Assembly (NCBI GenBank): GCA_964016885.1 | Contig: OZ024742.1 | Coordinates: forward strand, 151,094,001 to 151,158,000 | Source of the DNA: Eledone cirrhosa | Taxonomy: Eukaryota | Direction of reading: 5' to 3' | DNA: 64,000 bases | Shown here: in pieces, positions 13,929 through 61,126 of the stretch | How the letters are laid out: each line of letters opens with the position of its first letter | How positions within the stretch are numbered: the first letter of the stretch is position 1 | The notes under the pieces: generated by a model | Database searches by the model: none | What the model saw: the letters and a program-made list of their open reading frames with translations, nothing else | What the model was told of the DNA's origin: nothing | Position numbers and translations under genes: made by a program

Positions 13929-14326
13929 TTCAGGTTTGAGGTTCACCACTGTATAGAGCTGGTCTATTCCGTATGGTCAATCGTAATGCAATAATATAGA
14001 GAGTACTCAACGTAAAGCAGTTCAACCGTCTTTGTTTTTGTAGTTGGTGGTGCTATTACGGAGTTAAATATTATAATGAAATGACATGAGGCTGGATTTG
14101 AAAGTCTGTACGACCGGCTGAGGTTGAAGGAACAGAATAGCGTTCGCCCTCGGGTCCTCGATTTTCAGCCCCATGGATTTTATCTATTACATTCACGTAT
14201 TATATTTCGAATACCTGATGATATCACCGGATTCATACGGAACCCGGTCATTGAAATGATCATAGTGTAATAAACCTTTCAAGGATTTACACAAATCCAG
14301 CCTCCTGTCATTTCATTATAATATTA
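13929..14326. mobile_element. Fold-back PLE-like micro-insertion (family F6)
   Basis: Inverted repeat 14067-14100 / 14292-14325; right arm carries an HHR; both ends in (TA)n. Confidence 0.7.
14211..14268 (+). ncRNA. Type-I hammerhead ribozyme
   Basis: ATAC-CTGATGA-[ACCGGATTC..GAACCCGGT stem]-GAAA-TGATCA-TA-GTGT. Confidence 0.75.
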
Positions 14327-16503
14327 TATGTATATATATATATGTATATATATATATGTATATATATATATATGTATATATATATATGTATATATATATA
14401 TGTATATGTATATATATATATATATATATATATATATATGTATATATATATATGTATATATATATATATATATGTGTATATATATATATGTATATATATA
14501 TGTATATATATATATGTATATATATATGTATATATATATATATATATATATATATGTATATATATATATGTATATATATATGTATATATATATATGTATA
14601 TATATATATGTATATATATATATATATGTATATATATATATATATATATGTATATATATATATGTATATATATATATATATATATATGTGTATATATATA
14701 TATGTATATATATATGTATATATATATATATGTATATATATATGTATATATATATATATATATATATATATATATATATATATATATATATATATATATG
14801 TATATATATATATGTATATATATGTATATATATATGTATATATATATATGTATATATATATATGTATATATATGTTTATATATATATGTATATATATATA
14901 TGTATATATATATATATATGTATATATATATATGTATATATATATATGTATATATATATATGTATATATATATATATATATATATATATATATATATATA
15001 TATATATATATATATATGTATATATATGTATATATATATATGTATATATATATATATGTATATATATATATGTATATATATATGTATATATATATATGTA
15101 TATATTTATATGTATATATATATATGTATATATATGTATATATATATATATATATATGCATATATATATATGTATATATATATATATATATATATATATA
15201 TATATATATATGTATATATATATATATGTATATATATATATGTATATATATATATGTATATATATATATGTATATATATATATGTATATCTATATATCTA
15301 TATATGTATATCTATATATATGTATATATATATATGTGTATATATATATATGTATACATATATATGTATATATATATGTATATATATATATATGCATATA
15401 TGTATATGTATATATATATGTATATGTATATATATATATATATATGTATATATATATGTATATATATATATATATATGTATATGTATATATATATATATA
15501 TGTATATATATATATATGTATATGTATATATATATATATATGTATATATATATAGATATATATATGTATATATATATATATATATATATATGTATGTATA
15601 TGTATATATATATATATATGTATATATATATATATGTATATGTATTTATATATATATATATGTATATATATATATATATGTATATATATATATATGTATA
15701 TATATATATGTATATGTATATATATATATATATGTATATATATATATATATATATGTATATATATATGTATATGTATATATATATATATATATGTATATA
15801 TATATGTATATGTATATATATATATATATGTATATATATATATATATATATATATGTATATATATATGTATATATATATATATATATACATATGTATATA
15901 TATATATATATATATATGTATATGTATATATATATATGTATATATATATATATGTATATGTATATATATATATATATATGTATATATATATAGATATATA
16001 TGTATATATATATATATATATATATATATATGTATATGTATATATATATATATATATATATATATATATATATATGTATATATATATATATGTATATGTA
16101 TTTATATATATATATATGTATATATATATATATATATATATGTATATATATATATATATGTATATATATATATATGTATATGTATATATATATATATATG
16201 TATATATATATATATATATATATATATATATATATATATATATATATATATATGTATATATATATGTATATGTATATATATATATATATATGTATATATA
16301 TATGTATATGTATATATATATATATGTATATATATATATATATATGTATATATATATGTATATATATATATATATATACATATGTATATATATATATATA
16401 TATATATATATATATATGTATATATATATATATATATGTATATATGTATATATATATATATATATATATATATATATATATATATATATATATATATATA
16501 TAT
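14327..16503. repeat. ~2.2-kb (TA)n microsatellite with TG interruptions
   Basis: Direct reading. Confidence 0.97.
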
Positions 16504-57569: not shown

Positions 57570-59891
57570 ATGGAAAAACACTACCTGGATATGTCACTCA
57601 AAAACATACCAACCCAAGGTAGAAGGGAATATTTATTGAGCATGATTCAAAAAACTAATGAATTCATTCGACGTGTCAGGTGGAAAACGCTCCACTATGA
57701 TAGAAGCCGTATGAACTCAACATTAGAAAGTGGTGTAAACAACAAATTCGGTTTTAGGACTTGTAAAAACCCACCCACCAACCCACTATTAGATGCATTT
57801 GAGCAGGACCTTATGAACTTAATCCCTAAAATTAAATTCAAAGGACGCAACACCAACAGCAAATTACAGAAAGATATAAAAAAACTACTGGACGACCTTA
57901 AAAACACCAAAGGAATTGTAGTAAAAGCGGACAAAACATCAAACCTGTACACTATGGATTGCACTACATAAAACAACTTCATTCGAAAAGAATTACATAA
58001 AAAATATAGAAAAACGAGTGAAGTAACCCTTAAGCACATCAATGATGAGGCATGCGAAATAGTGAAAAATCTCGGAATCGAAGATAGGACAGGACCACTC
58101 TTACCGGCGGTACCCACCTTCAATCTTAAGGACCACAAGGTAAACTTTGATAATGACCCTAAAATTAGATTAATCTGCCCCTCTAAATCAGATATAGGTA
58201 AAATAAGCAAATATATCTGAGATAGAATCATCCCCCAAATTAAGGCTAAGGTTAACATTAAACTCTGGGGGAAGACCCAAGAAGCAATAAGATGGTTTAA
58301 TAGCATTAGCAATAGGAATAAATCTAAGTTTATCCAGTTTGATATTGATGAATATTACTCATCGATATCACCTGAAACTTTGAATAGAGCCATTAAGTTT
58401 GCTAAGGATAACTCTGACCTTACAAACGATGAAATTAAGATTATATTAGAAGCTAGGAAAACTATAGTCAAATTTGAGAACAGTTATTGGGTACGTAAAG
58501 ATAGACCCTCTAACTTTGACATAACAATGGGCTCTAACGATTCGGCGGAAATAACTGATATTGTGGGGTTATTTATCGCCTTTAGACTCCAGGAAAAATT
58601 CAGCAATCTCCACGGCGGAATATACCGCGACGATGTTCTCCTCCTAGCTAAAAACCTTAATAACCAAAAACTAGAAAAACTACGCAAAGATATAAGAAAA
58701 CTACTACTCGAAATAGGACTAACTATAACATATGAATACAACCTTAAAGTAGTTAACTTCCTGGATGTCACACTCAATTTAAACTCTGGTTTGATTAAAC
58801 CGTTTCACAAATTGAATGAAAATCTCAAATACGTAAATGTTGGGTCTAACCACCCCATCTCTATAATTAAATCTATCCCTAAAAATATTTCCCTTAGAAT
58901 CTCGGGTCTATCTTCTAACATACAAGTATTTAAGGAACACGCCGAGTACTACGATAACGCCCTTAGTAAAGCAGGCTACCTCAACAAAATAGAGTACATA
59001 GATGGGAACAATCAAAACACCCAAAATAAATCCCACATAGGTAGATATAATAACACAACACCAAACCACACTTACTACCATAGTATGCACACCAGTAAAC
59101 CAACAAACAAAACTAATAGAAAGCGATGCAAAGAGTACTTATGGTATAACCCCGAATACAATAGCTCCATTAGTACAAATTTACCAGTACTCTTCTTTAA
59201 AATAATTAAACGACATTTTCCCACATCACACAAATACCACAAAATCCTAAACCCTACCACTATAAGACTGTCATACTCTACAGCGTTAAACCTTGAACAA
59301 CACATAAAAAAGATCAATACTAGAAGGCTAAACGAAAACACTAAGAACTTAAGTACAAAGAACCCCCAAAAAACAGTAGACAATACACTACAGAACATAA
59401 ATAAACCACACCTAAGTTCGTCCGCAATACTACTCCAGAGAAAACCCAACGTACACAACTGTAACTGCACCTATCCTGACAACTGCCCCCTCGGCAATAA
59501 CTGCCTGGAAAAAAATATTATTTATAAGTGTACCATTAAATCCGGAGGCAACGAGTGGTATTACGTGGGATCAACGGCAACATCGTTTAAATCTCGATTG
59601 TATAGGCATTCTTACTCAATAAAACACCAGAGCCAAAGAAATGTAACAACTTTAGCAGAAAAAGCTTGGACGCTCAGGGATAGCAATCAAAAGTTTACCC
59701 TAAAATGGGAAAAATTAGCTAAAACCCAAAGCTTTTCCAGGAGCCAAAATTTCTGCAAATTGTGTAATCTTGAGATTTATTACATAATCACACACAAGAA
59801 GAAACTGCTGAATAACAGAATTGAACGAACATTATTCTGCCGTCACAGAACTAAAACCCTTTTTTCCCACTACAAGCAGAATATTACATAA
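57570..59891 (+). pseudogene. Full-length N2 RT/GIY-YIG ORF (773 codons) with two nonsense codons
   Basis: ATG start, SLKNIP..Y..K..FIRRVRWK N-terminus typical of Naiads, GGIYRDD, CNC..CPLGNNC, IIYKC..YVGST; in-frame TAA 57969-57971 and TGA 58218-58220. Confidence 0.92.
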
Positions 59892-61126
59892 AAGAGGGAC
59901 ATCCCCCAACTATATAAACCTTAATCTAGTTAGAAAAATATAAAAACAATCTCTTCTCAACATATATTAATAACCTTAAATTACCATACTAATAATGAAA
60001 AGATATGCTGACGAGAATAGGTACAAATATGCGATAATGAATGTGTATAAAAACGTCCATAAGTATGTATATATATGTGAAAATGTATATAAATAAGTAA
60101 ATATATATATATGTTTGATGTGTATAGTTAGATGTAAGTGTATTCATGTATTAAAGTGCTTATATATATATATAATATGTGTGTGTGTGTATGTATATAT
60201 GTGTATATATGTATATGTATATATATATATATATATATATATATATATGTATATATATATATATGTATATATATATATATATATATATATATGTGTATGT
60301 ATGTATGTGTATATGGATGTGTATGTATGTGTATGTGTGTACACATGGACTAGAGTATGTATGTATATATGTGTGTGTCTATTACGTGTGTATATATAAA
60401 GATAAGTTGAGTATGAAAATGTATACACATGAGCGCGTATGTATGTACATGAATACATGTGTGTATATATATGTGTATGCATGTGTATATATATGTAAGT
60501 ATGAATATGTGAATTGTGAGTATATGTATTTTGTAGAGGTGTGCAAATATATTTGTGTGTGAATGCGTGGGTGAAAGAATACGTACACTTGAAAGAAAAA
60601 TTTAAGTCTGAATGTTAAGTGCAAACACAAAACCAACCACGCATATCTTTACTATCTCTAATCCTTCTATAGATTTAGAAAAATAACCAATAATATATTC
60701 TATAAAAAATGTCAAAACAACAGATGGGAATCTAATTACTCACTGCCACCAAGAATTCTCACTGCTATCGAAAAACCACTCCTTCAACTATTCTTCTAAC
60801 AACTTCACCCCTCCCTCCTAATATTCTCTATAAAAACTAAATAGGTCCTCAGTAATATTATTCTGATGAAATGACAGTAAATAATAACATTGAAATATTG
60901 AATGTCTGCATAACTAAAAGTTTGTAGATAGCTGTTTTAGGTTATGTAACTGTTATAGAAACACGTGTCAATAAATTCCTTTCAACTAAACTGTATCCAT
61001 TCAAATCTTTCTATTTTTCTCCGGATTACTTTTGGAACTACAACTGGAACCGTCGAGCAAACTCTACGTGAGCTGATAATCTACTGTGTGTAATATTTAT
61101 ATTACAACACAACGGAAAATACTGTA

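What the first reader, a model, noticed from the sequence alone, without database searches (positions are those of the whole stretch)
13929..61126. Shared rule: fold-back insertions with two family-specific 3' termini downstream of the ribozyme
Seen: the three F5 copies invert at different points (~19243, ~30386, ~44238), yet all end at CTCCTAC on one side (~132 nt past the predicted cleavage site) and ..TCTTATATTA-like on the other (~45 nt). Both N2 copies end ~44 and ~157 nt past it. N4 ends at ~52 and ~139 (outer end shared with the 24804 copy), F6 at ~62 and ~200, the 48.6-kb piece at ~19 and ~99, and the retrozyme at ~234 and ~303. Family P reuses GTATAACAAT (18174, 35695) and CAGAAAC (18263, 51714). 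Established: inverted pseudo-LTRs occur in PLEs, and L1 twin priming inverts non-overlapping segments. Inference: here both broken target ends prime reverse transcription at two defined internal RNA sites on overlapping template (two RNAs, or a tandem/circular RNA), and the cDNAs are then joined head-to-head by microhomology.
Basis: partly seen in the sequence, partly recalled or inferred. Interest (0 to 1): 0.82.

Follow-up and report, generated by a model that had tools for sequence, protein, structure and literature searches.

The report
Penelope insertions pair two fixed starts
Mirror-image copies of Penelope-type jumping genes almost always end at one near and one far fixed point, in most families just before one of two small hairpin motifs, which likely means that one RNA is copied twice, once from each side of the DNA cut.

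Summary
These are Penelope-like retroelements (PLEs) and a retrozyme inserted in (TA)n. N2, N4 and F5 carry Hydra-clade motifs; P is Neptune-like. Of 159 resolved two-armed insertions in six families, 156 pair one inner (tail-less) end with one outer (tailed) end; 3 are outer/outer and none inner/inner. Much is in print: inverted pLTRs with a one-sided tail, and two internal RT starts used from both target strands in vitro (PMC11167929). Not found in the papers searched: (1) the strict pairing, also when both arms exceed one 3.6-kb unit (12 of 12); (2) in Hydra-type families both ends lie about 4-9 nt before twin copies of a covarying bulged hairpin; (3) both arms share one source haplotype (44 of 48, against 5.8 expected). 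Likely mechanism: two RTs prime on one RNA, the outer cDNA displaces the inner one, and the two are end-joined. Single molecule and circular template remain inferred. The scan noted the twin hairpins before on other DNA of this genome.

The parts
13929..14324 (.). F6 fold-back: short outer arm (-, +22..+199), inner arm (+, to about +60); hammerhead cut after 14264; hairpin 1 at 14005-14064 (-)
18174..18263 (.). Family P mini fold-back: inner arm (-) and an outer arm that begins at the inner site (non-overlapping arms)
18728..19670 (.). F5 fold-back a, junction about 19243; cuts at 18860 (-) and 19625 (+); hairpin 1 at 18785-18809 (-)
24442..24804 (+). N4-related single arm ending at the outer site; hairpin 1 at 24722-24741
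24884..28929 (.). N4 fold-back (Hydra-type; GIY-YIG domain with CxCX5C linker at 26682-27314); outer end left, inner end right; hairpin 1 at 24946-24965 (-)
30131..30552 (.). F5 fold-back b, turning at a CATATG palindrome near 30386 (the -124 hot spot)
32623..34427 (.). N2 fold-back a: 60-nt inner arm, long outer arm; hairpin 1 at 34319-34359
35695..36472 (-). Family P single arm ending at the inner site
36563..36850 (.). Further fold-back with a tail of about 100 nt; hairpin 1 at 36617-36641 (-)
37593..43527 (.). 467-bp hammerhead retrozyme array as a fold-back (8.2 + 4.5 near-identical units), ends +234 and +303; no CTC/GAG hairpin
44104..44410 (.). F5 fold-back c, junction about 44238 with filler; hairpin 1 at 44161-44185 (-)
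44585..44765 (.). Further mini fold-back, tail about 85 nt; hairpin 1 at 44677-44721
45000..48109 (-). 5'-truncated PLE with RT and GIY-YIG (CxCX5C) ending at its outer site; hairpin 1 at 45079-45150 (-)
48565..48781 (.). 48.6-kb mini fold-back, 80-nt tail; hairpin 1 at 48707-48730
49361..51717 (.). Family P (Neptune-like) fold-back: outer end right, non-canonical left end; hammerhead core 51469-51497
54673..61126 (.). N2 fold-back b: inner arm (-) to 56188, then a partial tandem on + with a broken ORF 57570-59891, ending at the outer site
57409..57449 (+). N2 hairpin 1, about 4 nt after the inner site of the internal repeat
57524..57541 (+). N2 hairpin 2, just after the outer site and before the start codon; the only read-through copy in the window

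Best explanation
These are insertions of Penelope-like retrotransposons (Hydra-type and one Neptune-like family) and a retrozyme in (TA)n whose two arms end at one inner and one outer family-specific site, likely because both cut target strands prime reverse transcription on the same RNA, one at each site. Shown: two termini per family; near-strict inner/outer pairing; in Hydra-type families a bulged hairpin (N-C-U-C, helix, 2-nt U-N bulge, G-A-G-N') about 4-9 nt downstream of each terminus; shared haplotype of both arms. Inferred: each hairpin seats one RT, probably as a dimer; each target 3'-OH pairs with U/A-rich RNA just 5' of its hairpin; the outer RT displaces the inner cDNA from the RNA, which gives overlapping inverted arms; the two cDNA 3' ends are joined with short microhomology or filler. 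The 'tail' is then simply the spacer between the two starts. Short copies come from the 5' end of linear RNA (hot spot at -124 in F5); arms longer than one unit need a tandem or ribozyme-circularised RNA.
For: Pairing: F5 86 inner/outer, 3 outer/outer, 0 inner/inner of 89 resolved; N4 15/15; N2 24/24 including 12/12 in a set chosen for arms longer than one unit; F6 13/13; P 11/11; retrozyme 7/7. Hairpin 1 within 16 nt of the inner end in 21 of 32 end clusters, against 216/6400 shuffles and 21/333 upstream windows; closing pair G-C 10, A-U 9; next pair C-G 19, U-A 2; first upper pair U-A 11, C-G 8. Hairpin 2 after the outer end in all 6 hairpin families with a true read-through copy. F5: 62 of 81 inner ends stop 4 nt before hairpin 1; 100 of 112 outer ends stop 4-6 nt before hairpin 2. 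One template: 44 of 48 F5 pairs differ at no more than 1 of 21 diagnostic sites (permuted mean 5.8, maximum 14), with 15 haplotypes among 30 young insertions; N2 repeats within an insertion differ by 0.07-0.18% against 0.8% between insertions and share rare alleles. Inner arm reaches further 5' than the outer in 29 pairs, the reverse in 9, which excludes snap-back from one cDNA. In vitro precedent for two internal starts and extension of both strands: PMC11167929.
Against: No biochemistry on these families; the RT start is read from insertion ends, blurred by TA microhomology. Shared haplotypes also fit two RNAs from one locus, or later homogenisation of arms. Pile-up of outer-arm 5' ends at the inner start (5 of 21 at +35..+44) is only suggestive: p 0.017 for a fixed window, 0.19 after scanning. 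Exceptions exist: 3 outer/outer in F5, 2 apparent inner/inner in the family-agnostic scan (L355, L287), arms with odd ends (window 49361; 4), and one possible F5/N4-like chimera among 22 single arms examined. Single arms end at either site (14 inner, 7 outer in the HHR-anchored F5 sample), so no fixed order of priming is shown. P, the retrozyme and 9 other clusters show no such hairpin; P and the retrozyme follow the rule without it. PMC11167929 saw no strand difference in start site. That PLE RT lacks RNase H and can displace strands is recalled, not tested.
Confidence: 0.58

Rival explanations
1. Dual priming on two RNAs: an asymmetric dimer holds two transcripts, mostly from the same locus, and uses the inner site on one and the outer site on the other.
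For: Gives overlapping arms without strand displacement; a two-mRNA variant was proposed for L1 (PMC2837659, passages); one possible cross-family chimera; one outer/outer case with visibly different arms.
Against: Needs an extra asymmetry to avoid same-type pairs; 44 of 48 pairs share a haplotype although many haplotypes were active; several outer arms stop at or just past the inner start.
Confidence: 0.22
2. One RT start only; the tail-less end is made by endonuclease resolution of a DNA intermediate at a second recognition site.
For: PMC8557442 calls the tail 'most likely' a result of EN-mediated resolution; PMC11167929 reports earlier work that the tail was needed for EN recognition.
Against: Both ends sit at the same distance from the same hairpin, which points to one process; G-U pairs on the sense strand (8 in 4 clusters against 2 A-C, weak) suit RNA; PAc starts RT at both tail borders in vitro; non-overlapping arms (window 18174-18263) need two separate primings.
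Confidence: 0.12
3. Self-priming or snap-back: one cDNA or an antisense RNA folds back at a palindrome and copies itself.
For: Proposed in PMC3846280; many F5 junctions sit at a CATATG palindrome (65 of 163 arm 5' ends at -130..-119).
Against: Either arm may hold sequence absent from the other (29 against 9); most junctions are not palindromic; it does not explain a fixed second 3' end.
Confidence: 0.05
4. DNA-level duplicates of one insertion, or assembly palindromes.
For: Long perfect palindromes can be sequencing artefacts (general knowledge).
Against: Different flanks and junctions, arm divergence of 0-9%, one-sided tails; TA loose ends at the same two sites in contigs of a public DNA run (that run may be the source sample).
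Confidence: 0.02

Closest known systems
Poseidon PAc: internal RT initiation at two adjacent sites; PLE 'tail' (Frangieh et al. 2024, PMC11167929; parts 1-3 of 4 read, supplements held gave almost no text)
   Same: Two internal starts downstream of the hammerhead; tail equals the stretch between them; both target strands cut and extended; AT-rich targets; predicted dimer.
   Different: No pairing of the two starts within one insertion was measured; no twin hairpin described; tail 30-40 bp there, about 55-170 nt in most families here; different clade.
Inverted pLTR with one-sided tail in EN+ PLEs (Arkhipova et al. 2013, PMC3846280; Craig et al. 2021, PMC8557442; passages)
   Same: Head-to-head inverted 5'-truncated copy, tail on one end, partial tandems, (TA)n targeting.
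   Different: Described qualitatively ('optional', 'often'); explained by self-priming or EN resolution. Here quantified as near-strict and tied to two starts.
Hydra clade of C-terminal EN+ PLEs (PMC8557442, section 11 read)
   Same: RWK, DKT, CxCX5C linker, no CCHH seen, hammerhead, (TA)n insertion.
   Different: Units here about 3.6 kb (clade generally under 3 kb); no RNA signal at the termini described in that section.
L1 twin priming and dual priming (PMC2837659, passages)
   Same: Both nicks prime cDNA; inverted arms are joined at their 5' ends.
   Different: L1 starts at poly(A) plus a variable internal site and gives inversion with deletion; here both starts are fixed and internal, and arms mostly overlap.
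Animal non-LTR retrozymes (PMC7761336, passages; bioRxiv 10.64898/2026.07.22.740005, part 1 and passages)
   Same: Tandem type I hammerhead units; PLE mobilisation and circular templates proposed.
   Different: Arrays here carry the PLE two-end signature, so they were inserted as multimers in one step rather than amplified locally, as the preprint suggests.

Membership tests
EN+ Penelope-like elements | Single ORF with RT and C-terminal GIY-YIG endonuclease | tested here: met
   Intact 773-aa N2 ORF in L360 with RT region and YVGST motif; many 785-aa open frames genome-wide. Pfam gave no hit for 6 of the 7 window PLE fragments tested and a weak RVT_1 for P, so assignment rests on motifs.
EN+ Penelope-like elements | pLTRs with hammerhead, tandem/inverted structure, one-sided tail | tested here: met
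Hydra clade | RWK motif, DKT motif, CxCX5C linker | tested here: met
   N2 has all three; F5 and N4 ORF starts have R-x-R-W and DKT; N4, the 45.0-kb and the 6-9-kb elements have CxCX5C.
Hydra clade | Absence of the CCHH motif; insertion into (TA)n | tested here: met
   Read by eye from translations; flanks.
Hydra clade | Phylogenetic placement with reference Hydra RTs | not tested
   No reference set was fetched. F6 and the mini families are assigned only by shared hairpin and layout.
Neptune clade (family P) | CX2-5CxxC linker and CCHH motif in the endonuclease | tested here: inconclusive
   Motif-like cysteines and histidines read by eye in broken ORFs 48778-51217; no tree.
Non-LTR retrozymes | Tandem non-coding units each with a type I hammerhead | tested here: met
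   12 HH9 matches at 40 bits, below the gathering score of 52; period 467.
Non-LTR retrozymes | Expression as circular RNA | not testable with these tools
   No RNA holder listed for the one stretch searched, an F5 stretch.
L1 twin priming | Non-overlapping inversion, poly(A) first primer, TSD | tested here: not met
   Arms mostly overlap, no poly(A), TSDs hidden in (TA)n. It works like twin priming but is not that process.

The most novel reading that the evidence does not exclude
Penelope-like elements integrate by programmed double priming: a dimeric RT reads two tandem RNA hairpins on one molecule, and full-length copies come from a hammerhead-made RNA circle on which both RTs roll past each other. 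This would give the PLE hammerhead its missing job (placing the 5' hairpins downstream of the ORF) and explain pLTRs, partial tandems, inverted arms, tails and retrozyme arrays with one mechanism.
Probability: 0.3. Interest if true: 0.85.

Novelty: new variant of a known kind. Interest (0 to 1): 0.62.

Why it matters
How PLEs, the sister group of telomerase RTs, make their tandem and inverted ends is named as open in PMC8557442 and PMC11167929. A pairing rule over thousands of natural insertions, a compact RNA signal at both starts and intact ORFs in the same genome make it directly testable with a handful of RNA mutants. It also gives direct footprints of PLE machinery on retrozyme arrays, and predicts that fold-back stubs, which lack hairpin 2, cannot reproduce the two-armed form.

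Tried and rejected
Unmasked self-BLAST timed out; masked version used. DNA searches for F5 and N2 cores returned nothing because common words are skipped; exact patterns were used instead. The sample was anchored on the tail and is not counted in the tallies. Rfam miRNA hits are TA-repeat or palindrome noise. No RNA holder was listed, so transcription start, cleavage and circles were not tested. Circle versus linear tandem: only 1 of about 2,570 sites separates internal from terminal repeats, and microsatellite tracts are identical or nearly so in L392 and L403 but differ in the internal copy in L393 and L398; not decisive. 'Inner arm longer' does not show order of priming, because the outer arm starts about 87 nt further 3'. 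The minimum-energy fold of a truncated N2 stretch did not reproduce hairpin 1 as drawn; the motif rests on covariation, not folding energy. No pile-up of arm 5' ends at the hammerhead cut was seen. PMC522041 was not held; Evgen'ev and Arkhipova 2005 was not read and may already describe the pairing. Supplementary figures S1-S2 and the GenBank file of PMC11167929 could not be read and may bear on a hairpin near PAc starts. Paper searches that found no twin hairpin or pairing rule.
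Full report
Setting. The window is a nest of insertions separated by (TA)n tracts in a 3.0-Gb, 1,796-contig genome. Masked self-comparison shows many head-to-head repeats. 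Earlier scan notes call the host octopus-like; I did not test that.

Observation. N2, N4, F5 and F6 have hammerhead cores ending in a 6-nt palindrome, the dimer-type form described in PMC4209133 (passages). One P copy in the window (49361) breaks the rule.

Identity. [quoted passage not shown] F5 and N4 read-through copies run into related ORFs, 41-47% identical to N2, so F5 is the end of an ORF-bearing family. These motifs match the Hydra clade (PMC8557442 section 11). P is Neptune-like by eye. No tree was made.

Genome test of the rule. For F5 I took the first 100 of 14,967 exact matches of a hammerhead pattern and the first 100 of 10,974 matches of a tail pattern, all on contig C1, and fetched their surroundings. 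Hammerhead-anchored: 73 insertions, 48 inner/outer, 1 outer/outer, 0 inner/inner, 14 inner-only, 7 outer-only, 3 other. Union: 131 insertions, 86 inner/outer, 3 outer/outer, 0 inner/inner, 35 single arms, 7 unresolved or odd. The tail-anchored half cannot show inner/inner. Many single arms are long and leave the fetched range; two carry a tiny 12-22 nt outer arm. N4: 30 loci from the 40 best of 1,129 candidates gave 15 of 15 resolved pairs, 5 unresolved. N2: 30 of 44 pattern hits gave 11 pairs; 16 stretches chosen for two ORF starts gave 12 of 12, 4 unresolved; plus the second window copy. F6: 13 of 13, 1 unresolved (30 loci of 1,253 candidates). P: 11 of 11, 1 unresolved (first 30 of 24,983 hits). 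Retrozyme: 7 of 7 with the window copy (first 30 of 5,052 hits). Some N4 and N2 pairs were joined by position (divergent, within 5.3 kb) without seeing the centre. Total 156 of 159. A family-blind scan of 827 inter-(TA)n segments found 198 with terminal inverted arms in 40 clusters, each larger cluster with its own tail length. Symmetric cases were one F5 outer/outer, two apparent inner/inner and four that look like or may be internal TA tracts (two of these not checked).

What marks the ends. Copies that run past the outer end showed that the same motif follows both ends: N-C-U-C, a variable helix, a 2-nt bulge starting with U, and G-A-G-N'. It starts within 16 nt of the tail-less end in 21 of 32 clusters (one of these is a hairpin 2, and some clusters are related), against 3.4% of shuffles and 6.3% of upstream windows, with compensatory changes at three pairs. 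Hairpin 2 is present in all six hairpin families with a true read-through copy (F5, N4, N2, F6 and two others), although single copies carry mismatches. In F5 the last element-matching base lies 4 nt before hairpin 1 in 62 of 81 ends and 4-6 nt before hairpin 2 in 100 of 112. P, the retrozyme and families with 34-39 nt tails lack this motif. I saw the motif; later look-ups showed that the scan had reported it on other DNA of this genome.

One template or two. Arms of one insertion share a haplotype: 44 of 48 F5 pairs differ at 0-1 of 21 diagnostic sites, against 5.8 by permutation. In long N2 insertions all units are near-identical and share rare alleles; L403 holds three ORF starts identical over 1.9 kb with 3 rare alleles. 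These templates offer several inner and outer sites, yet pairing stays one and one, which suggests that the two starts used are neighbours. Either arm may extend further 5' (29 against 9, 21 equal), so snap-back from one cDNA fails. Some outer arms stop at or just past the inner start, but the excess is not significant after correction. One of 22 single arms may be joined to another family's inner arm. I rate one RNA more likely than two, not proven.

Junctions and 5' ends. Of 66 F5 junctions, 20 show 1-10 nt overlap, 3 are blunt, 23 have 1-15 nt filler and 20 are larger. 65 of 163 arm 5' ends lie at -130..-119, at a CATATG palindrome; a transcript start there is inferred. In contigs of a public DNA run, depth falls about 200-fold beyond the outer site and TA loose ends mark both sites; runs labelled organisms B and C show the same outer end in one contig each. 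Read-through, two-hairpin source copies therefore appear rare.

Comparison with what is known. The one-sided tail on an inverted pLTR is described, and PAc starts RT at both tail borders and extends both strands in vitro. The pairing counts, twin hairpins and single-haplotype evidence were not found in eight searches of an incomplete library. Circular templates are proposed for retrozymes, while the role of PLE hammerheads is called unknown; PAc did not need cleavage in vitro, and my circle tests were inconclusive.

Verdict. Real and general; a new variant of a known kind with a concrete, testable mechanism. Interest 0.62.

Noticed in passing
window 20703-23840 (-): Intact 1,045-aa LINE ORF with AP endonuclease and RT (Pfam RVT_1, Exo_endo_phos).
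   Followed up: partly
window 2595-3257, 12153-13154, 16505-17852, 51770-54515: A second LINE family, 95-99% identical, with one shared 3' end of short TAAAAGAG repeats inserted in (TA)n.
   Followed up: no
window 3895-12073: Older Hydra-type fold-back with internal microsatellites; its right arm is interrupted near 11274-12030 by an element ending in a hairpin plus CTAG, Helitron-like by recalled features.
   Followed up: partly
window 1-2198: Complex satellite of 25-28 bp units.
   Followed up: no
L057:2331-3042, L083:72-1025: Non-coding tandem elements (unit about 490 bp) with hammerhead and both hairpins; they obey the inner/outer rule across one full unit.
   Followed up: partly
L127:612-773: Family P fold-back whose left arm ends about 114 nt beyond the outer site, a possible third start.
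   Followed up: no
G000:C1:29126400-29130200 (L316): F5 outer arm joined through a short inverted F5 piece to an N4-like inner arm: possible template switch between families.
   Followed up: partly
window 31582-31980, 34510-35025: Another repeat family ending in (GAT)n, with an internal 112-bp duplication in one copy.
   Followed up: no
window 43745-43860, 27036, 3769, 63190-63490: Further hammerhead-like cores in elements not analysed.
   Followed up: no
P and retrozyme termini: Both P sites and the retrozyme outer site are followed by ATCG; the retrozyme may be moved by a non-Hydra family.
   Followed up: no
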